In this document: positions 13,391 to 51,464 of the stretch, piece after piece | Numbering within the stretch: position 1 is the first letter of the stretch | Layout: every line of letters starts with the position of its first letter | Virus record (IMG/VR): IMGVR_UViG_3300009502_000023 | Span: 37,731-101,730 of that record | Reading direction: 5' to 3' (one strand) | DNA length: 64,000 nt | DNA from: a virus | Taxonomy: Duplodnaviria; Heunggongvirae; Uroviricota; Caudoviricetes | Program-made: the position numbers and the translations under genes | The notes under the pieces: model-generated | What the model was told of the DNA's origin: nothing | Database searches by the model: none | The model's input: only the letters and a program-made list of their open reading frames with translations

Positions 13391-13464
13391 GCACGCATAG
13401 TTCAATGGTAGAACTGGAGATTTCCAATCTTCAAATGTGGGTTCAATTCCCACTGCGTGCTCCA
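13391..13464 (+). tRNA. tRNA-Gly (anticodon UCC), CCA encoded
   Basis: manual fold: acceptor GCACGCA/TGCGTGC, D-arm GTTC-AATGGTA-GAAC, anticodon stem GGAGA/TCTTC with loop TTTCCAA, T-arm GTGGG-TTCAATT-CCCAC, discriminator T, CCA. Confidence 0.85.
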
Positions 13465-20794: not shown

Positions 20795-21322
20795 ATGACA
20801 AAAAAGAAAAAAAATCCATTTACTTATATATGTAACGATTTATTACCCGGTACTGATTATTCATTTCATCATTTGATTGAATTGGGTGTTTTATACGGAT
20901 ATACCTATGATGAAGTGATGAAAGCATTATTTACAGAAATTCAAAAGAAGAATCCTAGAATTGTTTTGGGATTTAACAAGAATGCTTTCTTGAATCCAAA
21001 AAATAGATCTAATAAAAAAGTAATTGAACCTATAAAAACAGAAACAGAAATAATTGCTGAAGCAGTTATCAAGAAAAATAAAGAATTTATTCAGAAATGG
21101 ATAGAGACTGAATTTGATAAAAAGCTAGAATCACTGGTTCAGAAATATGTGGTATCTGAGTTTAAGGAAGAAGTTCTTCCGGTTCTTATCGACCGCATCG
21201 ATGGTAAGTTTAAAAACATTCAAGAATCACATACAAAATCTATTAAGGTAGAAGTTATTCAAATTCTATCTGATATGATTATCAAAGCAGCTCAAGAGGA
21301 GATTCCAAGTAATGAAGATTAA
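20795..21322 (+). CDS. hypothetical protein
   Basis: ORF 175 aa. Confidence 0.45.
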   Translation: MTKKKKNPFTYICNDLLPGTDYSFHHLIELGVLYGYTYDEVMKALFTEIQKKNPRIVLGFNKNAFLNPKNRSNKKVIEPIKTETEIIAEAVIKKNKEFIQKWIETEFDKKLESLVQKYVVSEFKEEVLPVLIDRIDGKFKNIQESHTKSIKVEVIQILSDMIIKAAQEEIPSNED

Positions 21323-24161
21323 TTTCTTTAACGTAGATGAGTTTTGTGAAACGATCCCAGAGATTACTACTAATAAAATCTATGCAAAGAGAGGTTTTCA
21401 TCCAAATGGTCTTTTCTCTGAAAAGTTCTTTGGACCGGTAAGGACTTGTACTTGTGGTTGTGGTATTTATTGGGGTCGGTCTAAGATTGGTGAACTCTGT
21501 AGTCAGTGTGGAGTTGAGATTGGGTATTCGAGTTTGAGAAGAAAGAAGTTTGCAAAGATTGCTCTTCCCTTCCCGGCTCTTAATCCAATTATGTACTATC
21601 TTATTCTAAAAGCTGGTAAAGCTACTATTGGAAATGTTATTCATGATATGATTTTCAATGATACTACGATGGGTTATTATTTCGATACTGATTCTAGAAA
21701 GTATATTCAGGTTAAGAAACCAAGCATTGAGAGTGAGACACCTATAATTCCAGAAGGAACAATTCTGTATTCTGGAGCTAATGGTATCTATGAACTAATT
21801 AAGTTTGAATCTGAAAGAATGATGGAAACAAATACGACGTGGAAGTTTATTAATACAAATATTAGTAAATTTTTTATGTCGAATGTTATTGTATGTCCTC
21901 CCGAGTTTAGACCAGTGTCGAAAACTAAAGACGTACAAATGCGTGATAAGATGAATGAGTTCTATATGACTATTCTGAATAATAGTTTGATGGTCAAGAA
22001 TGATGTGACCACTTATGAAAATTCAGAAATTCATATGACCAACTTTAGAAATCAACAGAGATATATCTTCAATTTCTATGAATATATTTTCTCAAAGTTT
22101 TCTAAGAAGTCTGGACTAATCAGAGGTTCTATTCTTGGTAAGAGAATTGACTTTTCAGCTCGTGCTGTAATTAGTCCTGAACCAAAATTACTTCTTGATG
22201 AATGTTCTCTTCCTTATATTATAGCATTAGAATTATTTAAGCTTCCTATTGTAAATCGATTGTTGGAGATGAAAAATTACGGAGATCGTAAATTCGTAAG
22301 ATATGATCCAACTATTGATTATGTTAATGATTGTATTAAGTTGAAAGACCTTGCTTTACTTGATATTGTCAGAGAAATAACAGCAGGAAAATTGGTATGC
22401 TTAAATCGTCAACCAACTTTGCATCGAATGGGTTTGTTGTCATTTAAGATTCTTATCAATACAGACCATGTAATTAAGATTCATCCGATGGCGTGCGAAC
22501 CATATAATGCAGACTTTGATGGCGATCAGATGGCTGCATATATTTCTCTATATCCTGAATCTGAAGCTGAAAATAAAGAGAAGATGTTTATCTTAGCTAA
22601 CTTAGTATCTCCATCTACAGGTAAGATGATTCTTGGTGCAAATCAAGATATTTTGCTTGGGTTGTACTTAATGACTAAACCAGATGAAACTAAGAAAGTT
22701 ACTTATAAAAATATCGAAACTTATGAGGGTCGAGTTAAGTTTAATAGTATCTTCCCTGATAATTTTCCGTTTTTGAATAGGACGATTAATAAGAAGGAAC
22801 TGCATGTTCTCTTGAATATTTTAGTTCAGGTTTATCCTCCTGAGACTGTTAAGAATATTCTTGATAATATGAAGAATATGGGATTCTATGAAACTACAAC
22901 TCGGGGTACCACATTCTCGTTGAAAAACTTGAGTGGTGAAGGTATCCATGATGTAATTTCTGGTATTGTGGATGATCCAACAAAGACACCACAAGAAAAA
23001 TTCCATCTTCTTGCTGATCATCCCCTAAAGAAACAAATTCAAGAAGATTTCCCCTACAAGGATTTTATTGAATCTGGATCACGTGGTTCCTGGGAACAGG
23101 CAAATCAATTGATCTTCTGTAGAGGTTATATGTCTAACTCAAAGGGCGAGATGGTGGAAACACCGATTAAGAATAATCTCGTTCATGGTTTGACAAAAGA
23201 TGAGTTCTTTACATCCTGTTATGGATCTCGCAAGGCATTACTTGATGTAGCTCTTAATACTGCAGTATCTGGATATTTGACTCGCAAATTAGTTTATTGT
23301 ACTATTAATCTTGAACTTGATGAAAAGAAAGATGATTGTGGTACAACCGATTACTTCGAAGTTAAGATTCCAGAATTAATGACTGATGATAAGTTCAACG
23401 AGTTGGTTGCTGGCATTCCTGATCTCATTGAACGAAAGATTATGAAAGATCATCTTAAACACAAGTATGAAGAGATGGACCCAATTAAACTTACCAGAAG
23501 TTTAATTCATCGTTATATGACTGTTACATCAGAAACTGGTGAAACTATATTGAAGTTGATTGATGAAGATAATTATCATACCTTGTTTGGTAAGACAGTT
23601 AAGCTTCGTTCACCAATCTTCTGTAAGTCAGCTAGAATTTGTAAGACATGTTATGGTAAGATGAGTGATAAGGTTCATTCAAAGTATGTTGGTGTGTTAG
23701 CAGCTCAAGCCCTTGGCGAAGTTGCAACTCAGCTTACTCTTCGGACTTTCCACACTGGTGGTGTTGCGAAGGTGAGCAAAGATAAAGATTCATCACACCA
23801 AGATATCATTAGTGACTTGACAGTAGTTAATAGATTGCTGCATGGATCGGCTAGTGGTTCCTACTCTGAATTGATCTTGAAATTGTTCTCGGTTTATTTG
23901 AGACATAAGGTATTACTGTTGATTAATTTTGAATTGGTAGTCAGCCAACTCATGCGCATAGGAAACATGAGATGGAGATTGCACCCAAATCGAGATACTG
24001 AAAATTATCAATTGGTTTCGGTTGAGAATGTACCTTCTAGGGAGAGTTTCCTTCTGGCATTAGCATTCTCGAAGCCGTATAATTATATCGTTAGTGGTAT
24101 TCTTGGTAATAGTCAAACGACCGATGGTATTCTCGAGAAGATGTTAATTAATCGAATTTAG
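21312..24161 (+). CDS. rpoC: RNA polymerase beta-prime-like subunit (compact, single polypeptide)
   Basis: N-term Zn ribbon CTCGCG...CSQCG; universal catalytic NADFDGDQMA at about 22507-22536. Confidence 0.85.
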   Translation: MKINFFNVDEFCETIPEITTNKIYAKRGFHPNGLFSEKFFGPVRTCTCGCGIYWGRSKIGELCSQCGVEIGYSSLRRKKFAKIALPFPALNPIMYYLILKAGKATIGNVIHDMIFNDTTMGYYFDTDSRKYIQVKKPSIESETPIIPEGTILYSGANGIYELIKFESERMMETNTTWKFINTNISKFFMSNVIVCPPEFRPVSKTKDVQMRDKMNEFYMTILNNSLMVKNDVTTYENSEIHMTNFRNQQRYIFNFYEYIFSKFSKKSGLIRGSILGKRIDFSARAVISPEPKLLLDECSLPYIIALELFKLPIVNRLLEMKNYGDRKFVRYDPTIDYVNDCIKLKDLALLDIVREITAGKLVCLNRQPTLHRMGLLSFKILINTDHVIKIHPMACEPYNADFDGDQMAAYISLYPESEAENKEKMFILANLVSPSTGKMILGANQDILLGLYLMTKPDETKKVTYKNIETYEGRVKFNSIFPDNFPFLNRTINKKELHVLLNILVQVYPPETVKNILDNMKNMGFYETTTRGTTFSLKNLSGEGIHDVISGIVDDPTKTPQEKFHLLADHPLKKQIQEDFPYKDFIESGSRGSWEQANQLIFCRGYMSNSKGEMVETPIKNNLVHGLTKDEFFTSCYGSRKALLDVALNTAVSGYLTRKLVYCTINLELDEKKDDCGTTDYFEVKIPELMTDDKFNELVAGIPDLIERKIMKDHLKHKYEEMDPIKLTRSLIHRYMTVTSETGETILKLIDEDNYHTLFGKTVKLRSPIFCKSARICKTCYGKMSDKVHSKYVGVLAAQALGEVATQLTLRTFHTGGVAKVSKDKDSSHQDIISDLTVVNRLLHGSASGSYSELILKLFSVYLRHKVLLLINFELVVSQLMRIGNMRWRLHPNRDTENYQLVSVENVPSRESFLLALAFSKPYNYIVSGILGNSQTTDGILEKMLINRI

Positions 24162-24219: not shown

Positions 24220-25164
24220 ATGAATAAGTTGTGTAAGTGTGGTTGTGGTCAAAAAACAGTATTTAATAAAAATTCTAAACAATTTAATATGTTTATCAAA
24301 GGACACAGTAATAAAGGAAAAATTCATTCTGCTGAAACTAGAAATAAAATATCAGTTCGATTATCTGGTAAAGTACCATGGAATAAAGGTGCGCCTGCAT
24401 CAGAAGAATCTAAACTTAAAAATTCTATGGCTCACATCGGGAGAGAACATTCAGAAGAATCAAAAAGAAAAATATCTGAAAATAATGCTAAAACCATGTT
24501 GGGAAAGAACTGGTCTAAAGAAGTAAAACAAAAAATTAGAGAATCTAGATTGGGTAAAAAAGCATCTGCAGAAACTCGATTAAAAATGAGAGAGTGGCAA
24601 CTTGGAAAAATTATTCCAGAAATATCTAAAGAGAAAATAAAAGAAACATGGAATAATAAAAGCAAAACGGAATTAGATATTATAAAACAAAAAAGACAAC
24701 ATACGTTATTATATAATTATGGATTTGATAATTTTTCTAAAACACCACAATTTAAAGAAATGGCAAGAATTGCATCTATTAAAATGGTCGAAAACCAAAT
24801 AGCCAGTGGGGAACCACTATCTCCTAAAATTGGACCACAAGAACGATCATTTCTAAATGAACTCCAACAGTATACCTTGTATAAAATTATTCGAAACGAT
24901 TCTTCTTTTAGATATATTAAAGGTAGATTTCCAGATGGACATATATTAGAATTAAAACTTTTCATTCAATTCGATGAACGATTTCATTTCTCCGATATTG
25001 CTTGTAAAATCTATAAACAAGATGATATAGATTGTACTCTTCAACTTGCTTCTCTCGGTTATATCATTTTTCGAGTTTCAGAGAAACAATGGAAAGAAAA
25101 CAAAGAGAAAACAATTTCTGATTTCAAAAACTTTTTGGTACTGTTAGATCAAGGAAGAAACTAA
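24220..25164 (+). CDS. homing-endonuclease-like protein (Zn-ribbon + NUMOD3 repeats HSAETRNKIS/HSEESKRKIS + PD-(D/E)xK-like C-term) inserted between RNAP subunit genes
   Basis: MNKLCKCGCG N-term; multiple NUMOD3-like repeats; C-term FPDGHILELKLFIQFDE nearly identical to 13482 paralog. Confidence 0.6.
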   Translation: MNKLCKCGCGQKTVFNKNSKQFNMFIKGHSNKGKIHSAETRNKISVRLSGKVPWNKGAPASEESKLKNSMAHIGREHSEESKRKISENNAKTMLGKNWSKEVKQKIRESRLGKKASAETRLKMREWQLGKIIPEISKEKIKETWNNKSKTELDIIKQKRQHTLLYNYGFDNFSKTPQFKEMARIASIKMVENQIASGEPLSPKIGPQERSFLNELQQYTLYKIIRNDSSFRYIKGRFPDGHILELKLFIQFDERFHFSDIACKIYKQDDIDCTLQLASLGYIIFRVSEKQWKENKEKTISDFKNFLVLLDQGRN

Positions 25165-25177
25165 AGGGAGATATCAC

Positions 25178-28100
25178 ATGCTTCGAGTTCCCGCATACGA
25201 GTTACAGAATATCAATGTGTATAATTTTAGAAACCATGAATGGAATGAAGAAACCATAATCGATAATATCAACAAGATGCTTGTTTGTGGTGAAGATTAT
25301 GGTTTGCGAATCAAGTCAGTAGTTATTAAAAATAAAGAAGAAAAAGAAACATCCGAAGTTAAAAGAACCAAGAGTAAGATTCTTGATATCTCTCTTGCAT
25401 ATACTAATGAAGAAGGAACCGAGGATGTTGATCTGAGTTATGATCTTCCTTGGTTGTTACAAAATCACTTTTTCATTAGTGGCAACTGGAAAGTTTGTGT
25501 ATACCAGTTGTTTGATAAGCCTGTTATTAAACGTCCAGGTATTATCAAAATTCGCACCAATATTCAATCGATCATGCTTGAAAAGAAAACAGGAACAAGA
25601 CGTAAATTTTCTTATGAGATTAGTCTTTTTGGAAAGAAGTTTGCTTTTGCTAAGCTTCTTATTGCTTATTTGGGAATTGAGCAAACTAAGGCTCGGTTTA
25701 CTCTGAATGAGAATAATGAGTATACCGGTCCTGTAATCAATGAGGATATTGATCTTTTGATCAAAGATATTACTGCAGTACTCAATGATGTTTCTCTTGA
25801 TAAGGCTAGACTTTTGGAAACATATTTTCCAAGAAAAGTGGATGCTAAAATTATTGAGGATGTTCTTTTGATTACTAAGATTGATATCTTTAGTAAGAAG
25901 TATTTTAATACCGATAATGTCATTGAAGAATTTCTCTTCACTATTCAAAATGATATTAGCGATGATTCCAATTATGCTAATAAGAGAATTCGATTTGTTG
26001 AGCAGGTTGTATACGTCCATCTTGCAAAGGATTTCTATAATCTAATTAACTCTATTCGAAAGAATAGAAAGTTGAAGTTCTCTGTTAACTCTAAATCTAT
26101 TTTGTCAAATGTCAATGTATCTAACATTGTACAGTTTGATAATAGTTTGAATCCACTTTCAGAACTAGCTATGTTGTCAAGAACATCATTGTCTGGTCCT
26201 GGTGGTTTTGAAAAAGCTAATGTCCCACAGTCATTGAGAGAGATTCATCCCTCCATGTTGTATTTGATTGATCCATCAGATACTGCAGATCGTGAAGGCT
26301 GTGGTACAATTCAATATCTTATTCCTAATACGGAATTCAATCAGGATGGTACATTCTTTTCTAGAGGTAAGAAGGTTATTAATTCTGTCTCTGAAAGTTT
26401 TGTTCCGTTCCTTGAGCATGATGACGCAACTCGGTTACAGATGTCTTCGAGTCAGCAGCGGCATGCAATTATGTTAAAGAAATTCGATAACGCACTAATC
26501 CAGAGTGGTGTTGAAGGAATGTATACTGATCAGACCTCTTTCTTATTTAAAGCAAAGAGAAATGGTAAAGTCATTTATCTTGATGATAATATCATTTGTG
26601 TTCAGTATGATAATAAAACCTGTGAAGCATTTCATATTGGATATCGAAAACTGTATATCTCTACAGTAGATTTCTATAAGGTTTATTACAACATTGGTGA
26701 TACCTTCTCTAAGAATGATATCATTGCAGAATCCAATTATCTTAGAAATGGTAATATTACACTTGGAAAAAATTGTTTGGTAGCTATCATGCCTTGGTAT
26801 GGTTATAATTATGAAGATGGTATTATTATCTCTCAGAAAGTTGCTGAAGAGGATTATTTTACCAGTGTTCATTATGTTGACCTGATTATTGAACTAGCAC
26901 CAAATAAAGTATTGATGAATCAGGGAACAGATTATACCAATTATAAACCACTTCCTGAAATCGGTCAAGTTCTTCATCGCGGTGACTCATATGCAAAAAT
27001 TAAAGCTATCGACACCGATGGTTTTGATGATGTGATGTTTGAACCAGTAACAGAAGAATGTGTGACCGAAGATTGTAAGATTGTGGATATTAAGATCTAT
27101 GCGAATAAATGGAATAAGAATTTTCCACAGTATGATCTGTTTATTCAGGAACTAATTAAAACACAGAAGTCAAAGAAGACCGATATTATCAAGAAATTAT
27201 CTAGTCATCTTACTAAAGAAGAACTGGATAAACTTACAGATACTCTCGAGATTCATCAGACCGAAAAGAATAATTATAAGATCAAGGGTGAGTATATTGA
27301 TGGTGTCAGAATTGAAATTACTGCTGTTTATGAAAGAAAAGTAACAGTCGGTGACAAGTTAGGAAATCGGCATGGGAATAAGGGTGTGATTTCTAAGATT
27401 GCACCTATTGAAGAAATGCCAGTATTACCTGATGGTCGTAAAGCTGATATTATCATTAATCCTCTTGGTATTATTTCTCGTATGAATATTGGTCAGGTCT
27501 ATGAGGCACATCTTGGTATGGCACTTATGGATTTGAAGAAGATAGTTCGAGAGATGCATAATGAGAAGAAAACTCAAAAAGAAATTTACGAATATATCTT
27601 GGGATTCATTAAGATAATCGATATGACAGAGAACGGTAATTATTATCAACAGATGAAGACGATCTTTGATAGTTTACCGATTCAGAGTTTTATTGATAGT
27701 CTTGATAATTTCTTTGTTATTCAGCCACCATTTGAATCTATTCAATGGGTTCAATTAAATAAAGCAATGGAATATACTAAGACCGCATTTGAGATTACTG
27801 TGTTTGATCCAATCTCTGGAGCGAACATTCAGAATCCAATCAATTGTGGTTATATGTATTTCATGAAACTTAACCATATTGCTCAGGATAAAATGTCATA
27901 TCGTGGCATTGGACCCTATTCAGCTAAGACATCTCAACCCCTAGGTGGTAAATCTAGAAAAGGTGGACAGCGTCTTGGTGAAATGGAAATTTGGGCAGTG
28001 ATTGGTCATGGTGCTGAAAAGAATCTTAATGAATTCATTTCTGTTAAATCAGATTCAATCAAACTCAGAAATAAATACATTTCAGAATGTATGTGTAACA

Positions 28101-28465
28101 GTGATCTATTACTAGATTCTGATGATGATGAGGTTCCGCAGTCACTAAGATTGCTTCAGACAAATCTAAAATCAATTGGTTTGGATTATGCTTTGTTTGA
28201 GGGCGAGAATAAATTCTTACCTGAACTAGATGAGGATGATGGAGATGAAACAGAAAAAGCAATTGAAAATCTTAAACAGGTTTTATCTTCTGAGAATGCT
28301 CGTGAAGACATTCCTGTTATAGAAGGTATTGGTGATGGAACTACAACAATTGAAATTGGAACAGCTGTAGATGAGAAGAAAATCATTTATGATGATACTT
28401 TGGTAGATCAGTTTCCAATGGATGAAGAATTACTGGAAGGAATTTCTAACGATGACAACGAATAA
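25178..28465 (+). CDS. rpoB: RNA polymerase beta-like subunit (compact, single polypeptide)
   Basis: RHGNKGVISKI and GGQRLGEMEIWAVIGHGA beta-subunit signature motifs. Confidence 0.85.
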   Translation: MLRVPAYELQNINVYNFRNHEWNEETIIDNINKMLVCGEDYGLRIKSVVIKNKEEKETSEVKRTKSKILDISLAYTNEEGTEDVDLSYDLPWLLQNHFFISGNWKVCVYQLFDKPVIKRPGIIKIRTNIQSIMLEKKTGTRRKFSYEISLFGKKFAFAKLLIAYLGIEQTKARFTLNENNEYTGPVINEDIDLLIKDITAVLNDVSLDKARLLETYFPRKVDAKIIEDVLLITKIDIFSKKYFNTDNVIEEFLFTIQNDISDDSNYANKRIRFVEQVVYVHLAKDFYNLINSIRKNRKLKFSVNSKSILSNVNVSNIVQFDNSLNPLSELAMLSRTSLSGPGGFEKANVPQSLREIHPSMLYLIDPSDTADREGCGTIQYLIPNTEFNQDGTFFSRGKKVINSVSESFVPFLEHDDATRLQMSSSQQRHAIMLKKFDNALIQSGVEGMYTDQTSFLFKAKRNGKVIYLDDNIICVQYDNKTCEAFHIGYRKLYISTVDFYKVYYNIGDTFSKNDIIAESNYLRNGNITLGKNCLVAIMPWYGYNYEDGIIISQKVAEEDYFTSVHYVDLIIELAPNKVLMNQGTDYTNYKPLPEIGQVLHRGDSYAKIKAIDTDGFDDVMFEPVTEECVTEDCKIVDIKIYANKWNKNFPQYDLFIQELIKTQKSKKTDIIKKLSSHLTKEELDKLTDTLEIHQTEKNNYKIKGEYIDGVRIEITAVYERKVTVGDKLGNRHGNKGVISKIAPIEEMPVLPDGRKADIIINPLGIISRMNIGQVYEAHLGMALMDLKKIVREMHNEKKTQKEIYEYILGFIKIIDMTENGNYYQQMKTIFDSLPIQSFIDSLDNFFVIQPPFESIQWVQLNKAMEYTKTAFEITVFDPISGANIQNPINCGYMYFMKLNHIAQDKMSYRGIGPYSAKTSQPLGGKSRKGGQRLGEMEIWAVIGHGAEKNLNEFISVKSDSIKLRNKYISECMCNSDLLLDSDDDEVPQSLRLLQTNLKSIGLDYALFEGENKFLPELDEDDGDETEKAIENLKQVLSSENAREDIPVIEGIGDGTTTIEIGTAVDEKKIIYDDTLVDQFPMDEELLEGISNDDNE

Positions 28466-29180: not shown

Positions 29181-29933
29181 ATGTCTGAACGTAATCTGAA
29201 CGAGATGCTGAATACCGATGAAGTCACCGAGACAGCTGAAGCTACTGCTCTGGCTACTGCTGGTCGTCCACCCAAGACGTCCAAGGTTGAACCTGTTGTT
29301 GCTCCTGTTGCAGTAGTTACTCCTGAAGTTACTGAACCAGTTGCTGCGGGTGTAGTTGCTACCGGAAGCTTTGTTAGTTTGAATGATTATCTTACCACTC
29401 ATCGTGCGAAGATCACAAATGCTGCTATTACGAGCCTTTCTGGTTTCTCTCGAGTTCCTGCTGGTAAGTATATGATGTTCTGTACTAACACCGAAGATAA
29501 TGCTGATCTAGTTCTTTTTGAGAAGCCCGGTACTCTTTGGATGGAACAAGGTGCAATTCCTGATGCTATCAAGGTTGAGAGCAGTGGTATTGTTATCAAG
29601 TGTCCTAATAGTCGCTACTATATTGGTAAGAACAATGTGACCAAGATCACAACGAACGCAACCAATAGTGTTGAGAATATTAAGGTTTATAGTCGCAGCA
29701 AGACTGCAGATGATATTCGTGTGTCCGATGAAACGGTCACTCAGAGCACTGCAGATGCTGATACTGTGAAGTTGCATGTGAAGAAGGTTAGTCCTCGTCT
29801 TTATAATGCAATCAAGGATATGACCACCAAGGATGAGATCAAGGCTGGAATCCAAGACTTCATGAGTAAGATCTACGACTTAAATCATCTTATAAAAATT
29901 GAGAAGGAACTTCTTTACACGCTTAGTCTGTAA
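29181..29933 (+). CDS. GC-rich codon-distinct gene, unknown (probably very highly expressed; N-terminal Ala/Pro/Val/Thr-rich linker)
   Basis: ORF 250 aa; CTG/GCT/GGT/AAG-rich codon usage unlike neighbours; strong terminator downstream. Confidence 0.55.
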   Translation: MSERNLNEMLNTDEVTETAEATALATAGRPPKTSKVEPVVAPVAVVTPEVTEPVAAGVVATGSFVSLNDYLTTHRAKITNAAITSLSGFSRVPAGKYMMFCTNTEDNADLVLFEKPGTLWMEQGAIPDAIKVESSGIVIKCPNSRYYIGKNNVTKITTNATNSVENIKVYSRSKTADDIRVSDETVTQSTADADTVKLHVKKVSPRLYNAIKDMTTKDEIKAGIQDFMSKIYDLNHLIKIEKELLYTLSL

Positions 29934-30031: not shown

Positions 30032-30202
30032 ATGAAATCAATGATAATAGACGAAGATCTTCATCGAATATTAAAAGTACTTTCAGCAGAAAAAGTTAGA
30101 TCAATTAGAAGTTTAATTTGTGAAGCTTTGATTGATTTATTTCGAAAGTATAATAAAGAAATTTCAAAAAATTTAGAGACTTATCATGAACGAAATACAT
30201 AA
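30032..30202 (+). CDS. small ribbon-helix-helix-like protein (56 aa, not in ORF track)
   Basis: MKSMIIDEDLHRILKVLSAEKVRSIRSLICEALIDLF resembles CopG/RHH fold; paralog at 51333. Confidence 0.45.
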   Translation: MKSMIIDEDLHRILKVLSAEKVRSIRSLICEALIDLFRKYNKEISKNLETYHERNT

Positions 30203-31022
30203 ATTATGCGAGTGCGGTTGTGGAAAAGAAGTAAAATTATCATCTAGTAGATTTTGTAGTGGTCATAATATGATCGGGGTGATAAAATCAAAAGAAACAC
30301 TTCTAAAAATAGCAAACTCAAATAGAGGACAAAAACGTTCTTTAGAAACAAAAGAAAAAATATCTAATTCGCATAAAGGAAAAAAACATTCGTCAGAAAC
30401 AATAGTAAAAATAGCAAACTCAAATAGAGGACAAAAACGTTCTATAGAAACAAAAGAAAAAATATCTAATACTAGTAAAGGAAGAGTAATGCCCCCTATA
30501 ACAGAAGAAACAAGAAAGAGAAGATCTATTTCTGCAACAGGAAGAATGCTCTCATTAGAAACAAAAGAAAAAATATCCAAAGCACATATAGGAAAAAGAT
30601 GTTCACCTGAACATATATTGAATATGAGTATTGCTCAAATGAAACGAGTAGAAAAACAATTATTTAATGGTGGACCAATGTATCCTTGTATGGGGAATAA
30701 TGAAACACAAATTCTTGATTGTTTTCAAACAGAATCAGGAGAGAGGATTCTAAGAAACGATCATGATTTATTTCTAAAATCGGGCAAATTTCCAGATGGT
30801 TATATTAAAAAATATAATCTGTGTATTGATATTCTTGAACCACACCATTTTAAACCAAATGGTGAATTAAGTGACAAAGATCAAAAACGAGAATTAAGAA
30901 TAGCTTTACATCTCGGTTGTATGATATATTATGTTCCAGAACAAGAATTTCTTTTTAATCAAAATAAAGAGATTCATCGATTCAAAGATTTTCTATTAAC
31001 ACTAGATGAGGATCGAAACTAA
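30186..31022 (+). CDS. homing-endonuclease-like protein, variant subfamily (Zn-ribbon + NUMOD3 repeats; C-terminal nuclease motif degenerate)
   Basis: MNEIHKLCECGCGKEV; repeats GQKRSLETKEKISNSHKGKKHSSETIVKIA; C-term FPDGYIKKYNL lacks the ELK of paralogs; sister of 51457 gene. Confidence 0.55.
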   Translation: MNEIHKLCECGCGKEVKLSSSRFCSGHNMIGVIKSKETLLKIANSNRGQKRSLETKEKISNSHKGKKHSSETIVKIANSNRGQKRSIETKEKISNTSKGRVMPPITEETRKRRSISATGRMLSLETKEKISKAHIGKRCSPEHILNMSIAQMKRVEKQLFNGGPMYPCMGNNETQILDCFQTESGERILRNDHDLFLKSGKFPDGYIKKYNLCIDILEPHHFKPNGELSDKDQKRELRIALHLGCMIYYVPEQEFLFNQNKEIHRFKDFLLTLDEDRN

Positions 31023-32001: not shown

Positions 32002-32491
32002 AGACAATACAAATATGTTCGGCGAAACAATTTCAGAAGAAGATTCTCAAATTATTGATTTCATTAATGAACGAGAACTCTACTATGAGACAATGGCTCG
32101 TAATGAGATCATGTTAGAAGTAGAAAAAAAATTTGGGAACAAAGGTAAAGAAGTTCTATCACAGCTCAATGAAGATGTTTCAGTTTTACCAGAAAATCTT
32201 GAATGCCCAGAATGTGGTAAAATTTCAAAAGAAGTGATGGATAGCGCAGAACAACAACTCAAGTTGATTGAAGTTGCATTTGATTCTGAGTTTGATGCAG
32301 TGGTGAAATATGTAATGTTTCATAATAACGAAACATTACATATCAGTCTTGATTTAATGAAAGAAGCAATTGAGAGATTCTCTAGTTATAAACTTGGAGA
32401 AATTCCATATGATGTAATGCAAAAAGTTAAAATCAAAATTCTGTTTGACGGAATTCAAGAGGGGTGGTTGATAGATGAAATCTTTGAGTAA
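31952..32491 (+). CDS. hypothetical acidic protein (contains CPECG zinc-ribbon-like pair)
   Basis: ORF 179 aa. Confidence 0.4.
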   Translation: MIDTHQDLILRYTHMSEDNTNMFGETISEEDSQIIDFINERELYYETMARNEIMLEVEKKFGNKGKEVLSQLNEDVSVLPENLECPECGKISKEVMDSAEQQLKLIEVAFDSEFDAVVKYVMFHNNETLHISLDLMKEAIERFSSYKLGEIPYDVMQKVKIKILFDGIQEGWLIDEIFE

Positions 32492-33095
32492 ACGTTGTTT
32501 GAATCTTGGATCCGGCAAAGTTGATTTTGACCGGTATAAAGATTACATGACAACAGTTCATGTAGATCAGAGCTATATTGAAAGTGGATCAGTACCACTT
32601 GATGTAATTGTACAAAATTTTTATGATATAGAAAAAGAAAAAACTTCAAAACAATATTTGTGTAAATCTAATATTTTCGATTTCATTGATTCATTTCCAT
32701 ATAAGTTCGATATTGTCTTTGCTGAGAGAATTTTTGAACATATGGATTATACCGGTGGTGAGATTGGTCGATTGTTAGAAGGTATTAATGTTTTAACAAA
32801 CAAGGATGCTGAATTAACAATCGTTGTTCCGAATGCTATTCTTATTTCTAATATTCTTTCTGATATAGAAAAGAATTATGAGAAAATGGGATATGTAGAA
32901 ATTCTTAATAAAATGTTAATTGTTAATACAGAAAACCACAACTTTCGTCATGATCCTCATTGTTCTAGTTGGACACCAACAACTGCAAAATTCTATATTG
33001 AATCCGAGGGAACTTGGAAAATTAGTTTTATAGAAGAACAAATACAATTTGCTGGTCGAGATATTTACATGAGAATACTTTGTTATAAAACTTAA
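32475..33095 (+). CDS. class I SAM-dependent methyltransferase-like protein
   Basis: LNLGSGK (motif I) and DIVFAERIFEHM (Methyltransf_11-like motif II). Confidence 0.45.
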   Translation: MKSLSKRCLNLGSGKVDFDRYKDYMTTVHVDQSYIESGSVPLDVIVQNFYDIEKEKTSKQYLCKSNIFDFIDSFPYKFDIVFAERIFEHMDYTGGEIGRLLEGINVLTNKDAELTIVVPNAILISNILSDIEKNYEKMGYVEILNKMLIVNTENHNFRHDPHCSSWTPTTAKFYIESEGTWKISFIEEQIQFAGRDIYMRILCYKT

Positions 33096-33148
33096 GTAAT
33101 TGTGTAAGGATCTCTTTTTATATTAGAATAAATTAAAAGGAGATCCTC

Positions 33149-34225
33149 ATGATCGAGTGCAAAGAATGTGGAAAAGAATGTATTTCTGAATTTCATTTAG
33201 CTAAACATTTAGCAAGATATCCAATTAATCATTGTACTCCACAAGAGTATTATGATAAGTATATATTAAAAGATGATAATAATAAAAAGTGTCACCGTCG
33301 AACTTGTTTAAATCAGACATCTTTTAATGGTATTATTCATGGATATAATAAATACTGTTCACCTAGTTGTTGTAATAAAGAAAAAGCAACAGATCCTGAA
33401 TATAGATTGAAAAATAAAAATGCTCAGATTATAGCACAGAATAAACCAGAAGTAAAACAGAGAAGTAGAGATACAGCAAGTGCACAGTGGAAAGATCCCG
33501 ATGTAAGAAGACGAACATTATCTACGTATCAGCAAACTTTAAACAAACCAGGTATAAGAGAAAGATATTCAGAGGCATCAAAAAATAGATGGACTAATTC
33601 TGAATATAGAAATAAATATATACAATCAATGCAGAAACATTGGAAAAGTGAAGATTATAAAAAAGAATTTAAAAAAGCACATAACACAGAAGAAAGTAAA
33701 TTAAATCATTCGGTTGCAAGTAAGAAACTGTGGCAGAATCAACTATTTAGAGATAGGATGATTTCTTTTCTAAATAGTTCAGATCATAAAAAGTATATGA
33801 GTGATTTAGTTACTGTTAAAATGTTAAATGGAGAATGGAATCCTGGACATGGTTGCTATCATTGGGGGTACTGCTATTCTGAAAAGAATAACTCATTCAT
33901 GTTTCATAGATCAGGTACAGAACTCACTGCTTTTCAATTGTTGGATATAAACCCTTTAGTAAAATCATTCGATTATGAACCTTTAAGAATTAGTTATATT
34001 GATAAAGATGGAAATACAAAGTTTTGTATTCCTGATTTGATGATACATTATATAGATAATAGTTTGGAGTTGGTTGAAATAAAACCTGATGTTTTTGTCA
34101 ATGATGAAGACATTCAATTAAAACTTAAAGCTATGTCGGAGTATTGTATCAAAATTGGTATTAAATTTAGAGTGTGGTTAGAAAGTGAAATAGTAAACAG
34201 AAACACGAAACAGGAGATAGTTATC
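33149..34225 (+). CDS. homing-endonuclease-like protein (CKECGKEC Zn-ribbon, basic repeats, PD-(D/E)xK-like PDL...ELVEIKP) lacking its own stop codon
   Basis: ORF reads through in frame into the GC-rich gene starting 34226; AGAATAAATTAAAAGG motif and AAAGGAG RBS upstream. Confidence 0.5.
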
Positions 34226-34468
34226 ATGGCTACATATCAAGAGACGATGGATGCAATCAACACCAAGATCGATGCTTTCAAGGCCGCTGCTGCCACTGGC
34301 GTGGACAACAAGACTGCTGCCCTCCAAGCTCGCAAGTTGTCGATGGAACTTCGCGCTGATCTTCAGGGTTTCCGTAAGGCTAGTGTTGATAATGATCGCG
34401 CTAATACCAAGCACCGCGAGCCCAAGGCTGCAACAGCAACTGTTGCCGAACCTGCCGTTGTTGCCTAA
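34226..34468 (+). CDS. small (80 aa) Ala/Lys-rich GC-rich gene, probably very highly expressed
   Basis: own AGGAG RBS 9 nt upstream of ATG 34226; abrupt shift to GC-rich codon usage relative to upstream endonuclease body. Confidence 0.5.
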   Translation: MATYQETMDAINTKIDAFKAAAATGVDNKTAALQARKLSMELRADLQGFRKASVDNDRANTKHREPKAATATVAEPAVVA

Positions 34469-34540
34469 GTTACAGATCGAATAAAATAATAAGTAATAGT
34501 TAGTTTGATTATTTTTGTGGTGTCGGGTTATTTTCCACTA

Positions 34541-34610
34541 TATTATAAAAGTTTATCGTTACACCGTTACACCGATATTATAAAAAAGTTATTGTTACAC
34601 CGTTACACCG
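34541..34610. repeat. direct repeat x2 of about 34 nt (TATTATAAAA..GTTATyGTTACACCGTTACACCG), each containing tandem GTTACACCG
   Basis: copies at 34541-34574 and 34577-34610 in a 300-bp non-coding region. Confidence 0.55.
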
Positions 34611-34680
34611 GAAGTAACACACCAACCACAAGTAATCAAACTAACTATGAAACGTTATAAAATCAGATCGATTAAGAGGG

Positions 34681-34739
34681 TATCTGGGATTATACTAAGT
34701 CCCAGATATCCTTACTTTATTATACTTAAAAGTATAATA
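34681..34739 (+). promoter_or_regulatory. two adjacent perfect hairpins (9-bp stems) upstream of 34769 gene
   Basis: TATCTGGGA-10nt-TCCCAGATA (34681-34708) and TATTATACT-TAAA-AGTATAATA (34718-34739). Confidence 0.4.
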
Positions 34740-34960: not shown

Positions 34961-36007
34961 ATGAATAAGTTATGCGAATGTGGTTGTGGTATTGAAGTAA
35001 CCAATGAGAATAATAGGTTTTTAAAGGGACATAGTAGAAAAGGAAATAAAGAATCTTATATAAAACAAGCAAAAAATTACAAAGAAAAATATGGTGTTGA
35101 AAATCCATTTCAATTAGAACTAGTTAAAGATCAGATTAAACAAAAACATTTAGAAAATTTAGGTGTTGAAAATCCCAGTTATTCAAAAGAGATTAAAGAA
35201 AAGAAAACTAAAACAAGTTTAATAAGATATGGCTGTATGCACCCAATGCAATTTGAAAAATTTAAAGAGAAATCAAAGCAAACATGTAAAGAAAAGTTGG
35301 GTGTTGATTTTGCATTTCAATCAGAATCAGTCAAAGAAAAAATCAAACAAACCAGTTTTACAAAATTTGGTACTGATCATCCGATGAAATCAAAAGAAAT
35401 TCAAGATAAGAAAATTAAAACATTGATTGAAAATTTGGGATTTTCGAACCCAATGAAATCAGAAATATGCAAAAATAAAGCAAGAAAAACAAATATAGAA
35501 AAATTTGGCGTTTCGAATCCTAGTCAGTCTAAAATAGTTAAAGAACAGAAAAAACAAACATCAATAAAACATTGGGGTTTTGATAATTGGTCAAGAACAC
35601 CACAGGGAAGAAAACTACATCGAATTAATTCTATTAGAATGAGAGATGACCAATTAGCTAATGATGAACCAGCAATGCCGTGCGTTGGTATTGAAGAACG
35701 ACCATTTTTAAATACTCTTCAGCAATATACAAAATTTAATATCATTCGAAATGATAATTCTTTCAATCATGATGTTGGCAGATATCCAGATGGTCATATT
35801 CCCGAGTTAAAACTTTTCATTCAATTTGATGAAAAATTTCATTTTGAAAATAAAGAAATGACTATCTATAAAGAAGATGATCTAAATTGTACACTTGAAC
35901 TAGCATCTTTGGGATATATTGTTTTCAGAATTTCAGAAAAACAATGGAGAGAAAATAAAGAACACGTAATAGATCAATTTGAACTTATCATAACAGAACA
36001 CGAATGA
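34961..36007 (+). CDS. homing-endonuclease-like protein (Zn-ribbon + repeats + PD-(D/E)xK-like YPDGHIPELK) upstream of ligase
   Basis: MNKLCECGCGIEV; repeated K.Q.HLENLGVENP modules; C-term near-identical to 13482/24220 paralogs. Confidence 0.6.
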   Translation: MNKLCECGCGIEVTNENNRFLKGHSRKGNKESYIKQAKNYKEKYGVENPFQLELVKDQIKQKHLENLGVENPSYSKEIKEKKTKTSLIRYGCMHPMQFEKFKEKSKQTCKEKLGVDFAFQSESVKEKIKQTSFTKFGTDHPMKSKEIQDKKIKTLIENLGFSNPMKSEICKNKARKTNIEKFGVSNPSQSKIVKEQKKQTSIKHWGFDNWSRTPQGRKLHRINSIRMRDDQLANDEPAMPCVGIEERPFLNTLQQYTKFNIIRNDNSFNHDVGRYPDGHIPELKLFIQFDEKFHFENKEMTIYKEDDLNCTLELASLGYIVFRISEKQWRENKEHVIDQFELIITEHE

Positions 36008-40223: not shown

Positions 40224-40276
40224 TCAAAGTTTAAGTTAATAGTAATCAGTTATTGGAAACAAACAAAGAGGTACAA

Positions 40277-41863
40277 ATGTTTACGTTTATCATCGGAATC
40301 ATTTTCATTCTCGCTGGGCTTATTGTCTCGGTTGTTGCTAGTGATCTGGATCGTATTATTCGAACTATTATCCTGGTCCTTACAGTTATCGTTGGTCTTA
40401 CATGCGTTGTCGGTTCTTCGACTTTGTATGTTAAGCCAAGCGAGGGTGGTATCATTGTTAAGAAATTCGGGTCGTCGTTGAAGGAAGGTCATATTATTGC
40501 AGTAAATGGTGAGCGAGGTGTTCAGGCTGAGGTTCTATCTCCTGGATGGAGCTTTGGTTGGTGGCCGTGGCTCTACGACTGCGAGAGTCTTCCTAACATG
40601 AATATCCCAGAAGGTAAAGTTGGTGTGGTTGTGGCAAATGATGGACAGCCACTTCCTGTCAATGAAATCTATGCGGATGCGTGGGAATCTCCAAACAAGA
40701 TGGTTGATGCTATGGAATTCTTAACCAAGGGTGGTAAGAAGGGTCCTCAGCTTACCGTACTTCCTCCTGGACAGTATCGGTTCAATCCAAAGTTGTTTGA
40801 TATTTCTATTGCTCCATGTGTAGATATTACTATTGGTGAAGTTGGTGTCGTTCGAGCAAATGCAGGTAATGTATATAAAAATACAAATACTGTATCTATC
40901 AGCGGTGTTCAACTTGTACCAAAGGGATATAAGGGCATCTGGAATGAAGCATTGCTTCCTGGGAAGTATTACCTTCACCCGAACGCGTATCAAGTAGTTC
41001 ATAAGGCTACCATTAAGAAGATGTATAGCTATACTGGTTCGGAAGGTACTGAGTCTCATTCAAAGGCTGATCGTCCTCACATTGATGCTTCGATTCAAAC
41101 TCGTTCTGTTGATGGATTTAATATTCCTGTTGACGTTCGTGTGTTGACAAGTGTTCGTGCGGAGAATGCACCTTGGGTTGTTGCTAAGTTCGGCAATCCA
41201 GATGCTATGTCTGCAGATGGTTATGAAACGATTGAAACTCTTTCAATTCTTCCTACCATCCGGACAATTCTTCGTAATGCAGCTCAGAATGAGGGTGCAA
41301 TGCAATTTGTCCAAAAGCGTTCAGAAGTTGAGAAAGCTGCATATATGCAGTTTACATCTGAAATGCTAAAGGATAAGATTGATGTCGAGGGTGTTTATCT
41401 TGCTGATATTCGGTTAGATTCAACACCTGAAGGCAAGGCACTCTTGAAGACTCAAACCGATAAGCAAATTGCTGATCAGCAAAAGGCAATGTATCAACAA
41501 CAGGTACTCGCAGAGAATGAAAGAGCCAAGCAGGTTACTGCAGCTAGTGCAGCTGACCAGCAAAAGCGTATTCAGGAATCTCTTGCTGGTATCGAGTTTG
41601 AGAAAAATGGTGCTGAAGCTGCCAGGAATAAAGCTATCGGCGAGGCATCTGCATATAAGGCGAAGGTTGAAGCTCTCGGTGGTGTAGAGAACTTTACCAA
41701 GCTTGAGATTACAAAGATGATGGTTGAAGCTATGAGTAAGACATGGAAGGGTGAAGTACCCAACATTGTCATTCTGGGTGGTGGAAATGGTTCTGGTCTG
41801 AATGATGTCATGACGGGAGTATTTTCACAGCAGATGCAGGCTCAAGCTACGCAGAAGAAGTAG
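40277..41863 (+). CDS. SPFH/band-7 (flotillin/YqiK-like) membrane protein, GC-rich codon usage
   Basis: N-terminal TM helix, SPFH-like core, C-terminal Ala/Glu/Gln-rich coiled-coil flotillin-type repeats; codon usage like 8994/29181 genes. Confidence 0.55.
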   Translation: MFTFIIGIIFILAGLIVSVVASDLDRIIRTIILVLTVIVGLTCVVGSSTLYVKPSEGGIIVKKFGSSLKEGHIIAVNGERGVQAEVLSPGWSFGWWPWLYDCESLPNMNIPEGKVGVVVANDGQPLPVNEIYADAWESPNKMVDAMEFLTKGGKKGPQLTVLPPGQYRFNPKLFDISIAPCVDITIGEVGVVRANAGNVYKNTNTVSISGVQLVPKGYKGIWNEALLPGKYYLHPNAYQVVHKATIKKMYSYTGSEGTESHSKADRPHIDASIQTRSVDGFNIPVDVRVLTSVRAENAPWVVAKFGNPDAMSADGYETIETLSILPTIRTILRNAAQNEGAMQFVQKRSEVEKAAYMQFTSEMLKDKIDVEGVYLADIRLDSTPEGKALLKTQTDKQIADQQKAMYQQQVLAENERAKQVTAASAADQQKRIQESLAGIEFEKNGAEAARNKAIGEASAYKAKVEALGGVENFTKLEITKMMVEAMSKTWKGEVPNIVILGGGNGSGLNDVMTGVFSQQMQAQATQKK

Positions 41864-51332: not shown

Positions 51333-51464
51333 ATGAAAAGTTTTATGATTAATGATGAAGATTTACATACTCAATTAAAACTTCTTGCTGCTAAATCTAA
51401 GAAAAGTATAATCGAACTATTAGAAGAAGCTATAAAACTTGTGTTGGAGAAATATCATGAATAG
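51333..51464 (+). CDS. small ribbon-helix-helix-like protein (43 aa, not in ORF track)
   Basis: MKSFMINDEDLHTQLKLLAAKSKKSIIELLEEAIKLV; paralog of 30032 ORF. Confidence 0.45.
   Translation: MKSFMINDEDLHTQLKLLAAKSKKSIIELLEEAIKLVLEKYHE

What the first reader, a model, noticed from the sequence alone, without database searches (positions are those of the whole stretch)
33149..34468. Endonuclease ORF has no stop codon and runs in frame into a small GC-rich gene with its own RBS
The homing-endonuclease-like ORF starting at 33149 stays open to 34468. At 34226 an AGGAG-ATG initiates an 80-aa Ala/Lys-rich protein, and codon usage switches abruptly to GC-rich. The mobile endonuclease appears inserted flush against a probably highly expressed gene and borrows its stop. 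This produces a potential endonuclease-cargo fusion, unless the endonuclease is already a pseudogene.
Basis: seen in the sequence. Interest (0 to 1): 0.5.

Follow-up and report, generated by a model that had tools for sequence, protein, structure and literature searches.

The report
Stop-less homing endonuclease fused to histone-like gene
A selfish endonuclease gene inserted just upstream of a conserved, strongly codon-optimised histone-H1-like (Hc1) gene of an uncultured large phage has lost its own stop codon through a 47-base frameshifting gap, so it now reads in frame into that gene; this is a tidy but ordinary accident of mobile-element decay.

Summary
ORF 33149-34468 (439 aa) has no in-frame stop. 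An AGGAG (34212-34216) and ATG (34226) start an 80-aa gene in the same frame, and GC jumps from about 0.29 to 0.53.

Comparison with related metagenomic phages explains it. Eight related lineages have the small gene as a stand-alone 74-84 aa gene directly after the same upstream gene, with no endonuclease. One lineage (L008) carries a 63%-identical endonuclease at the same site, with its own TAA stop 28 nt before the small gene. Against L008, the window has a single 47-nt gap (47 = 3x15+2) in the variable C-terminal tail. The TAA aligned to the L008 stop is still present (34194-34196), but in the +1 frame. The ORF then crosses the native 5'UTR (34192-34225, 11 codons from Val350 to Ile360), which matches an endonuclease-free relative, and enters the small gene.

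The endonuclease is a zinc-finger, repeat and TnsA-like PD-(D/E)XK protein, and its ribosome-binding site is buried in a conserved hairpin. The small protein belongs to the Hc1 family (PF07432). Its GC-rich codon bias is also found in endonuclease-free relatives, so it is a resident gene, not cargo.

Whether a 51-kDa fusion protein is made or matters is untested. Interest is modest.

The parts
32475..33095 (+). Conserved upstream gene (206 aa, unknown function), the left anchor of the insertion site. In endonuclease-free relatives, its stop is followed 28-91 nt later by the small gene.
   Evidence: ORF list. tblastn synteny in L001, L003, L005, L008, L022, L024, L026, L029, L035. No Pfam or PHROG hit.
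33096..34191 (+). Inserted homing-endonuclease cassette (boundaries approximate). It is absent from 8 related lineages and present, 63% identical at protein level, at the same site in the L008 lineage.
   Evidence: Gene maps and sequences of relatives. DNA alignments. Synteny table.
33100..33152 (+). RNA hairpin that pairs the endonuclease's Shine-Dalgarno (AGGAG 33138-33142) and start codon (33149). The main stem is 33107-33120 / 33134-33147.
   Evidence: MFE -18.2 kcal/mol, z -4.1, 0 of 200 shuffles as good. The L008 counterpart folds the same way (-17.8 kcal/mol, z -4.6). Inverted repeat I2.
33149..34190 (+). Endonuclease coding sequence proper (aa 1-347, with Ile348 at 34190-34192). It has N-terminal Cys/His zinc-finger modules and mid-region basic repeats resembling those of annotated MobD homing endonucleases. 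The TnsA-like PD-(D/E)XK nuclease domain covers aa 268-343 (33950-34177).
   Evidence: Pfam PF08722, 38.4 bits against a cut-off of 26.5. tblastn hits to mobD and other annotated homing endonucleases over aa 83-170. E / PD / ExK motif conserved in P0009 and aligned to a solved TnsA N-terminal domain. 2122 homologues.
34191..34196 (+). Vestigial tandem stops, TAG (34191) and TAA (34194), in the +1 frame. The TAA aligns with the stop codon of the intact L008 endonuclease.
   Evidence: Stop map. Alignments showing a single 47-nt gap followed by AGTAAA in both sequences.
34192..34225 (+). Native 5'UTR of the small gene, with Shine-Dalgarno AGGAG at 34212-34216. Here it is read through as 11 codons, V-N-R-N-T-K-Q-E-I-V-I (Val350 at 34193-34195 to Ile360), preceded by the last base of Ile348.
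   Evidence: Identical to the UTR of endonuclease-free L024 apart from a 12-nt tandem duplication there, and near-identical to L003. Unstructured (z +0.7).
34226..34468 (+). Resident 80-aa Hc1-family (histone H1-like) gene with extreme GC3 and codon bias. Its stop ends the 439-aa ORF.
   Evidence: Pfam PF07432 at 21.5 bits (cut-off 23.5) for this copy; 7 of 9 family members match, best E 2e-9. Stand-alone homologues of 77-98 aa. AF2 model is a two-helix hairpin, pLDDT 79. Codon statistics.
34676..34713 (+). Terminator-like hairpin (16 pairs) followed by a T-rich tract. It probably ends the transcript that carries the small gene.
   Evidence: Terminator scan. The hairpin is kept with changes on both arms in L003, L024 and L005.

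Best explanation
A free-standing homing-endonuclease gene is inserted in the short spacer between two conserved genes of an uncultured large phage, directly upstream of a resident Hc1-like gene whose strong codon bias suggests high expression. The endonuclease combines zinc fingers, basic repeats and a TnsA-like PD-(D/E)XK nuclease domain.

In this lineage a net 47-nt (non-multiple-of-3) loss in the endonuclease's variable C-terminal tail put its stop codon out of frame; the remnant is TAG/TAA at 34191-34196. Translation that starts at 33149 therefore has to continue through 11 codons of the Hc1 gene's native 5'UTR and, by a roughly 1-in-2 chance, in frame through the whole Hc1 gene to its stop. 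The predicted product is a 51-kDa endonuclease-Hc1 chimera.

The 80-aa Hc1-like protein is still made on its own from its intact, unstructured Shine-Dalgarno and ATG. The endonuclease start, by contrast, is masked by a conserved hairpin, so the chimera, if made, should be rare.

Shown here: the insertion polymorphism, the gap and the out-of-frame stop, the intact nuclease motifs, the conserved UTR and the codon bias. Inferred: that the gap is a deletion in this lineage, that the hairpin represses translation, that both products are made, and that the fusion is a neutral accident rather than an adaptation.
For: - Insertion. Eight lineages (L001, L003, L005, L022, L024, L026, L029, L035) have the upstream gene followed after 28-91 nt by the small gene, with no endonuclease. 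Only the window and the L008 lineage carry it.
- Stop loss. Window and L008 DNA align along the whole gene, with one 47-nt gap just after the shared GAAATA (Glu-Ile). The following AGTAAA contains L008's stop, which is in the +1 frame in the window.
- The extension is atypical for the family. In 67 of the best homologues (of 2122 found), the C-terminus lies a median of 3 residues beyond the position of query Ile348 (maximum 43, none 80 or more). Here it lies 91 residues beyond.
- Native UTR. Window 34192-34225 equals the UTR of endonuclease-free L024, which also has no in-frame stop.
- The endonuclease is intact. Pfam PF08722 scores above its cut-off, the E/PD/ExK motif is conserved, and dN/dS is 0.22 against L008, similar to ligase (0.26) and the upstream gene (0.22).
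- Independent expression signals. The small gene's translation start region is unstructured, while the endonuclease's SD and AUG lie in a hairpin that is conserved in L008. RBS-sequestering hairpins are an established control for T4 I-TevI/II/III, segB and Aeh1 mobE (PMC2988022).
- Resident, codon-biased gene. It has the top GC3 of 56 ORFs, and its GC of 0.49-0.56 is conserved in endonuclease-free relatives.
- Not an assembly quirk. The DNA is identical in JGI and Logan assemblies.
Against: - Only one close homologue (L008 lineage, 63% identity) polarises the tail. The 47 nt could be an insertion in L008, or the sum of several indels.
- The TAA at 34194 also aligns with the stop of the upstream gene in endonuclease-free L024. 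It may therefore belong to the resident genome rather than to the endonuclease.
- No expression data exist. Hairpin repression and internal initiation are inferred from sequence alone.
- The assemblies may derive from the same or related samples, so independent confirmation is limited.
- Homing itself (site-specific cleavage of the empty allele) is not shown.
Confidence: 0.78

Rival explanations
1. The endonuclease is already defunct or never translated, with stop loss as the first visible step of homing-endonuclease degeneration. In that case only the 80-aa Hc1-like protein exists and the 439-aa ORF is an annotation artefact.
For: The start site is buried in a strong hairpin. Stop loss is confined to one lineage with no variants. 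The linker is raw UTR sequence, identical to a non-coding allele. The invasion, degeneration and loss cycle of homing endonuclease genes is established knowledge.
Against: There are no internal stops or frameshifts over 348 codons. The catalytic E/PD/ExK motif and the whole domain are intact. dN/dS is 0.22, though that mostly reflects history before the indel. The same hairpin is present in the intact L008 copy, so it looks like regulation rather than decay.
Confidence: 0.3
2. The fusion is adaptive. The endonuclease has captured the Hc1 module as a new DNA-binding or oligomerisation domain, so one ORF yields two products: a rare chimera and abundant free Hc1.
For: The fusion is in frame and uninterrupted, and it was assembled identically from more than one data source. 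Domain shuffling of phage homing-endonuclease domains into functional chimeric nucleases is documented (Odn of phage ICP1, PMC8263062). Nested in-frame products are known in T4 (gene 49, cited in PMC2988022).
Against: It is found in a single lineage. The closest endonuclease-bearing relative keeps a separate stop. None of the 67 tabulated homologues has a comparable extension. The linker shows no change from the non-coding UTR. Given a frameshift, an in-frame outcome has about a 50% chance.
Confidence: 0.1
3. A sequencing or assembly error removed the stop codon or created the junction.
For: The source is metagenomic. The junction lies next to short A-runs (GAAA, AAAC).
Against: The DNA is identical over 7.3 kb and 4.9 kb in assemblies made by different pipelines. 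The difference from the intact homologue is 47 nt, not a homopolymer slip, and GAAATA before the gap is shared with L008 and read as Glu-Ile there.
Confidence: 0.04
4. The GC-rich small gene is recently acquired foreign DNA (cargo) carried in with the endonuclease.
For: There is an abrupt GC step from 0.29 to 0.53 exactly at the ATG.
Against: The same gene, with the same elevated GC (0.49-0.56 against 0.26-0.34 background), occupies the same position in eight endonuclease-free lineages. Other genes in the window also show raised GC3 (0.35-0.43), forming a continuum. The bias lies in synonymous codon choice (AAG, CGC, GCC, TTC), which is typical of translational selection.
Confidence: 0.02

Closest known systems
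Free-standing homing endonuclease genes of T4-like phages (seg and mob genes, e.g. segB, mobE)
   Same: Inserted in short spacers between conserved phage genes. Present or absent at the same site among related genomes. Modular 'beads on a string' architecture, including repeats similar to those of MobD. Ribosome-binding site sequestered in an RNA hairpin (PMC2988022).
   Different: The nuclease domain is TnsA-like PD-(D/E)XK, not GIY-YIG or HNH. No promoter was identified inside the hairpin. The gene has no stop of its own and runs in frame into the downstream host gene. Homing activity is untested.
Tn7 TnsA endonuclease (Pfam PF08722, TnsA-like N-terminal domain)
   Same: Scores above the family cut-off (38.4 against 26.5 bits). 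The E / PD / ExK catalytic motif aligns with a solved TnsA N-terminal domain.
   Different: No TnsB, TnsC or other transposition genes or transposon ends were seen among the adjacent genes examined. It is fused to zinc fingers and homing-endonuclease-type repeats. It behaves as a single-gene insertion in phage genomes.
Chlamydial histone H1-like protein Hc1 (PF07432) and phage Hc1-like proteins ('moraphages', PMC12619734)
   Same: The small protein's family matches PF07432 (7 of 9 members, best E 2e-9). The predicted fold is a helical hairpin. Hc1-family genes have been reported in large aquatic phages.
   Different: This copy scores just below the Pfam cut-off (21.5 against 23.5 bits). It lacks the long Lys/Ala-rich basic tail of chlamydial Hc1; its tail is Ala/Pro/Val-rich and its net charge is about +2. 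DNA binding is untested. The host phage encodes RNA polymerase beta and beta', unlike the moraphages.
Chimeric homing-endonuclease-derived nuclease Odn of Vibrio phage ICP1 (PMC8263062)
   Same: A homing-endonuclease-type nuclease domain joined to a DNA-binding module of different origin, produced by recombination in a phage genome.
   Different: Odn is experimentally functional and selected. Here the join is a simple stop bypass onto an entire resident gene, seen in one lineage, with no evidence of function.
Nested in-frame gene pairs with internal initiation in phage T4 (e.g. gene 49; own knowledge and reference list of PMC2988022)
   Same: One reading frame, two start sites and a shared C-terminus and stop.
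   Different: In T4 the arrangement is conserved and regulated. Here the long form arose secondarily by joining two unrelated genes.

Membership tests
Free-standing homing endonuclease gene (functional class) | Encodes a nuclease of a catalytic family known among homing endonucleases. PD-(D/E)XK is one of the six to seven recognised families (PMC6083498). | tested here: met
   PF08722 at 38.4 bits, above the 26.5 cut-off. The E/PD/ExK motif is conserved in P0009 and aligned to a solved TnsA domain.
Free-standing homing endonuclease gene (functional class) | Presence/absence polymorphism at one fixed site between conserved genes in related genomes. | tested here: met
   Present in 2 of 10 lineages that share the upstream-gene/small-gene synteny, and at the same position in both.
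Free-standing homing endonuclease gene (functional class) | Site-specific cleavage of the endonuclease-free allele and gene conversion (homing). | not testable with these tools
   This needs cleavage assays or co-infection crosses. No co-conversion signal was detectable in flank identities.
TnsA of Tn7-like transposons | TnsA-like nuclease domain with catalytic E, D and K residues. | tested here: met
TnsA of Tn7-like transposons | Works with the adjacent TnsB transposase (and TnsC) within a transposon bounded by end repeats. | tested here: not met
   The neighbours are phage genes: a gene of unknown function, the Hc1-like gene, a DUF7487 endonuclease and NAD ligase. No transposase was seen among them. 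The window was not scanned systematically for TnsB or TnsC. The gene is not filed as TnsA.
Hc1 histone H1-like family (PF07432) | Match to the Pfam model at or above the gathering score. | tested here: inconclusive
   The window protein scores 21.5 bits against a 23.5 cut-off (E 2e-4). Seven of 9 aligned orthologues match at E <= 0.01 (best 2e-9). The L008 orthologue and P0007 carry precomputed PF07432 hits.
Hc1 histone H1-like family (PF07432) | Strongly basic Lys/Ala-rich C-terminal DNA-binding tail, as in chlamydial Hc1 (own knowledge). | tested here: not met
   The tail is REPKAATATVAEPAVVA. The whole protein has 12 K+R against 10 D+E, pI 9.2.
Hairpin-regulated homing endonuclease genes (T4 I-TevI, segB, Aeh1 mobE type) | Stable RNA hairpin sequestering the Shine-Dalgarno sequence and start codon. 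| tested here: met
   dG -18.2 kcal/mol, z -4.1, conserved in L008 (z -4.6).
Hairpin-regulated homing endonuclease genes (T4 I-TevI, segB, Aeh1 mobE type) | A late promoter inside the hairpin, so that late transcripts lack the 5' arm. | tested here: inconclusive
   The loop motif TATTAGAATAAAT is conserved between the window and L008, but it is not recurrent in the window (19 matches against 14.2 expected). The promoters of this phage, which has its own RNA polymerase, are unknown.
Intein (in-frame endonuclease insertion removed by protein splicing) | Hint/splicing domains flanking the endonuclease, inserted within a host protein. | tested here: not met
   No Hint or intein Pfam match. The host gene is complete downstream of the junction, and the junction is former UTR.

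The most novel reading that the evidence does not exclude
The read-through may be more than decay. It could be a one-step natural domain capture, in which rare ribosomes that escape the start-site hairpin make a TnsA-like nuclease tethered to an Hc1 histone-like module. That module could co-assemble with the abundant free Hc1 protein on DNA. This would change where the nuclease acts, for example on Hc1-coated host or rival-phage DNA, giving a nested two-product gene.
Probability: 0.08. Interest if true: 0.55.

Novelty: new variant of a known kind. Interest (0 to 1): 0.3.

Why it matters
The locus is a clean, datable example of how a selfish endonuclease gene and a resident phage gene can become one reading frame in a single indel. 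That is the kind of raw material from which chimeric nucleases (such as Odn of ICP1) can arise.

It is also an annotation trap. Gene callers report one 439-aa 'TnsA-like' protein and lose the Hc1-like gene: the database entry P0008 carries only PF08722.

It gives comparative evidence of mobility for a large family (2122 homologues) of zinc-finger, repeat and TnsA-like nuclease proteins. In phage records, relatives of this family are annotated as 'head completion protein' or 'Holliday junction resolvase'. I found no paper describing them as free-standing homing endonucleases.

Finally, it adds an Hc1-family gene with the strongest codon bias in the window, in a phage lineage that encodes its own RNA polymerase.

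Tried and rejected
- Megablast of the locus against GenBank phages found no match. tblastn of the small protein against phages found none either, so the lineage is uncultured.
- Scanning IMG/VR for relatives of the endonuclease found none.
- The sigma-70 promoter scan was not above shuffles (18 against 13.3 +/- 3.5). The conserved hairpin-loop motif is not a recurrent promoter-like motif.
- Rfam gave nothing for the locus or for the structured element downstream.
- PDB sequence search with the whole endonuclease was uninformative. A small profile gave only a weak TnsA hit (E 0.09).
- Foldseek of the two-helix small-protein model against viral structures gave no significant match. The AFDB50 library was unavailable.
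- I tested for a recombination or co-conversion mosaic around the insertion by flank identities and found no clear signal.
- I considered a single extra A in GAAA as the cause of the frameshift. I rejected it because GAAATA is shared with L008, where it is read as the conserved Glu-Ile, and because the family conserves a hydrophobic residue there.
- I considered recent horizontal transfer as the cause of the GC step. I rejected it because endonuclease-free relatives carry the same GC-rich gene.
- I considered an alternative genetic code. I rejected it because neighbouring genes and relatives end normally at TAA, TAG or TGA.

Full report
**1.

ORF 33149..34468 is open for 439 codons. Its only in-frame stop is TAA 34466-34468. 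AGGAG (34212-34216), a 9-nt spacer and ATG 34226 lie in the same frame and begin an 80-aa protein (24% Ala, 9% Lys, pI 9.2).

GC rises from 0.26-0.36 to 0.52-0.55 exactly over 34220-34460. GC3 is 0.19 in the endonuclease part and 0.50 in the small gene. That is the highest of 56 ORFs in the window (mean 0.24, sd 0.07). Synonymous choices are clearly shifted: AAG 7/7 against 33% elsewhere, CGC 4/5 against 3%, GCC 6/19 against 5%.

**2. What the two halves are**

The first 359 residues carry N-terminal Cys/His zinc-finger modules. They also carry a basic repeat region that tblastn matches to annotated MobD and other homing endonucleases of T4-like phages. The C-terminal domain is TnsA-like PD-(D/E)XK (PF08722, 38.4 bits against a cut-off of 26.5, residues 268-343).

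The E / PD / ExK motif is conserved in the closest homologue. It aligns, weakly (E 0.09), with a solved TnsA N-terminal domain.

An exhaustive profile-free search finds 2122 homologues of this architecture.

The 80-aa part belongs to the Hc1 histone-H1-like family. This copy scores 21.5 bits, just under the 23.5 cut-off, but 7 of 9 aligned orthologues match PF07432 (best E 2e-9). AlphaFold2 predicts a two-helix hairpin (residues 4-24 and 29-62, pLDDT 79) with a disordered Ala/Pro-rich tail. Hc1-family genes have been noted in another lineage of large aquatic phages (PMC12619734).

**3. Relatives without the endonuclease**

The small protein has seven database homologues, all stand-alone genes of 77-98 aa. 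Their contigs are syntenic with the window: RNA polymerase beta, GTP cyclohydrolase I, several small genes, a 202-209-aa gene, the small gene, and then NAD ligase.

A metagenome scan added more contigs. In all, eight distinct lineages (L001, L003, L005, L022, L024, L026, L029, L035) have the small gene 28-91 nt after the 206-aa gene's homologue, with no endonuclease. The endonuclease is therefore an insertion and the small gene is resident.

The small gene's high GC (0.49-0.56 against 0.26-0.34 background) is the same in these endonuclease-free genomes. So the composition step is an old property of the gene. Codon bias of this kind is consistent with very high expression. It is not a sign of recent import.

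**4. A relative with the endonuclease and its own stop**

One other lineage (L008, L009, L010, L040) carries a 365-aa homologue (P0009, 63% identical) at exactly the same site. It has its own TAA, followed 28 nt later by its Hc1-like gene.

Global DNA alignment of the two cassettes is collinear from the shared upstream hairpin to the Hc1 gene, with one conspicuous difference. After the shared GAAATA (Glu-Ile, 34187-34192), L008 has 47 nt that the window lacks. Both then continue with AGTAAA, which contains L008's stop codon.

Because 47 = 3x15+2, the corresponding TAA in the window (34194-34196), and a TAG just before it (34191-34193), lie in the +1 frame. The endonuclease frame therefore runs on.

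Among 67 of the best family members, the C-terminus lies a median of 3 residues past the position of Ile348 (maximum 43, none 80 or more). The 91-residue extension here is unique.

**5. The bridge is former UTR**

Window 34192-34225 is identical to the sequence that follows the upstream gene's stop in endonuclease-free L024 (…cagTAAacagaaacac[aaacagaaacac]gaaacaggagatagttatcATG). The only difference is a 12-nt tandem duplication in L024. It is nearly identical to the L003 UTR.

Those UTRs have no in-frame stop for 20-34 codons either.

From 34190 the three frames end at 34466 (in frame), 34191 (the vestigial stop) and 34357. Once the tail was frameshifted, an in-frame fusion was thus a 1-in-2 outcome.

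One caveat applies. The same TAA also aligns with the upstream gene's stop in L024. It may therefore have belonged to the resident genome and been used by the inserted gene from the start.

**6. Error is unlikely**

The JGI contig (sample 3300022555) and the Logan contig (run SRR5754711) are 100% identical to the window over 7.3 and 4.9 kb. The 439-aa protein is on record from JGI, Logan and ENA. The difference from the intact homologue is a 47-nt block, not a homopolymer slip. I could not check the reads, or whether the samples are independent.

**7. Expression logic (inferred)**

The endonuclease's Shine-Dalgarno sequence (33138-33142) and AUG are paired in a hairpin spanning 33100-33152 (-18.2 kcal/mol, z -4.1). 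L008 has an equivalent hairpin (z -4.6). This is the arrangement that limits translation of T4 I-TevI/II/III, segB and Aeh1 mobE (PMC2988022). I found no promoter inside it.

The small gene's initiation region is unstructured (z +0.7) and conserved in all relatives. A conserved terminator-like hairpin follows at 34676-34713.

The likely outcome is abundant 8.5-kDa Hc1-like protein from internal initiation. Whenever the endonuclease is translated at all, a scarce 51-kDa endonuclease-Hc1 chimera should also be made.

**8. Is the endonuclease alive?**

It has no internal lesions, and its catalytic motif is intact. dN/dS against L008 is 0.22 (dS about 1.2, near saturation). That is like ligase (0.26) and the upstream gene (0.22), but this mostly reflects history before the indel. 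Pseudogene status, neutral read-through and adaptive fusion cannot be separated with sequence alone.

I favour a recent, neutral or mildly deleterious accident. The fusion is seen in a single lineage, the linker is unchanged UTR, and the nearest endonuclease-bearing relative keeps a separate stop.

**9. Comparison with what is known**

It works like a T4-type free-standing homing endonuclease: intergenic insertion, presence/absence polymorphism, modular architecture and RBS hairpin. Its nuclease domain, however, is TnsA-like PD-(D/E)XK.

It is not a Tn7 TnsA, because no transposition partners were seen among its neighbours. It is not an intein, because it has no Hint domain and the host gene is complete.

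The stop bypass onto a resident gene is a variant I did not find described. The nearest concepts are homing-endonuclease domain shuffling (Odn, PMC8263062) and T4 nested genes.

**10. Verdict**

It is now explained mechanistically. It is of modest interest as an evolutionary snapshot and as an annotation pitfall.

Noticed in passing
window 34485-34665: The spacer after the small gene is strongly structured (34469-34730: -72 kcal/mol, z -7.3). A long-range stem encloses the conserved boxes GTGGTGTCGGG (34517-34527) and CCACCAACCAC and a variable core with two 28-nt direct repeats (34547-34574, 34583-34610). The stem is kept with compensatory changes in L003, L024 and L005 (6 of 24 pairs). The element is absent from L001 and L008. 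There is no Rfam match. It is a candidate small RNA, processing site or mini mobile element.
   Followed up: partly
window 13482-14552, 24220-25164, 30186-31022, 34961-36007, 51439-52176, 53526-54542: Six paralogous DUF7487 / NUMOD3-type free-standing homing-endonuclease genes are wedged between core genes, several overlapping their neighbours by 8-37 nt. One lies between RNA polymerase beta' and beta, and one lies just before NAD ligase. Three of them (30186-31022, 51439-52176, 53526-54542) are among the five lowest-GC3 ORFs in the window (0.13-0.15). Relatives lack some of them.
   Followed up: partly
window 30032-30202: A 56-aa ribbon-helix-helix antitoxin-like ORF (precomputed Pfam Antitox_RHH / RH3_dom, weak hits) overlaps by 17 nt the start of the homing endonuclease at 30186. 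The same pairing occurs in L001, L003 and L008. It mirrors the antitoxin and homing-endonuclease association reported for 'moraphages' (PMC12619734).
   Followed up: partly
window 21312-24161 and 25178-28465: These are full-length bacterial-type RNA polymerase beta' (949 aa) and beta (1095 aa) genes in a phage-like, all-plus-strand gene array. The best GenBank phage matches are only about 27% identical, and there are no DNA matches, so the window comes from an undescribed large-phage lineage (contig of at least 101 kb).
   Followed up: partly
window 8994-9641, 29181-29933, 40253-41863, 61774-62196: These are the other genes with raised GC3 (0.35-0.43 against a mean of 0.24), probably the most highly expressed. 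One is an SPFH/Band 7 protein (40253-41863). The others have no family match.
   Followed up: partly
window 13391-13464: tRNA-Gly(UCC) lies immediately upstream of the homing-endonuclease paralogue at 13482.
   Followed up: no
L016 2995-4676: In a distant IMG/VR phage contig, a 65-aa Hc1-like gene is followed 62 nt later by a 473-aa homing-endonuclease-like gene. That gene shares the same N-terminal zinc-finger module (36% identity over residues 1-97) but has a different C-terminal part. Hc1-like genes may be recurrent neighbours of such elements.
   Followed up: no
L024 98-141 versus window 34192-34225: The endonuclease-free relative L024 has a 12-nt tandem duplication (AAACAGAAACAC) in the small gene's 5'UTR. 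There the upstream gene's stop (cagTAA) occupies the position of the window's out-of-frame TAA. This hints that the endonuclease originally inserted right at the end of the upstream gene.
   Followed up: partly
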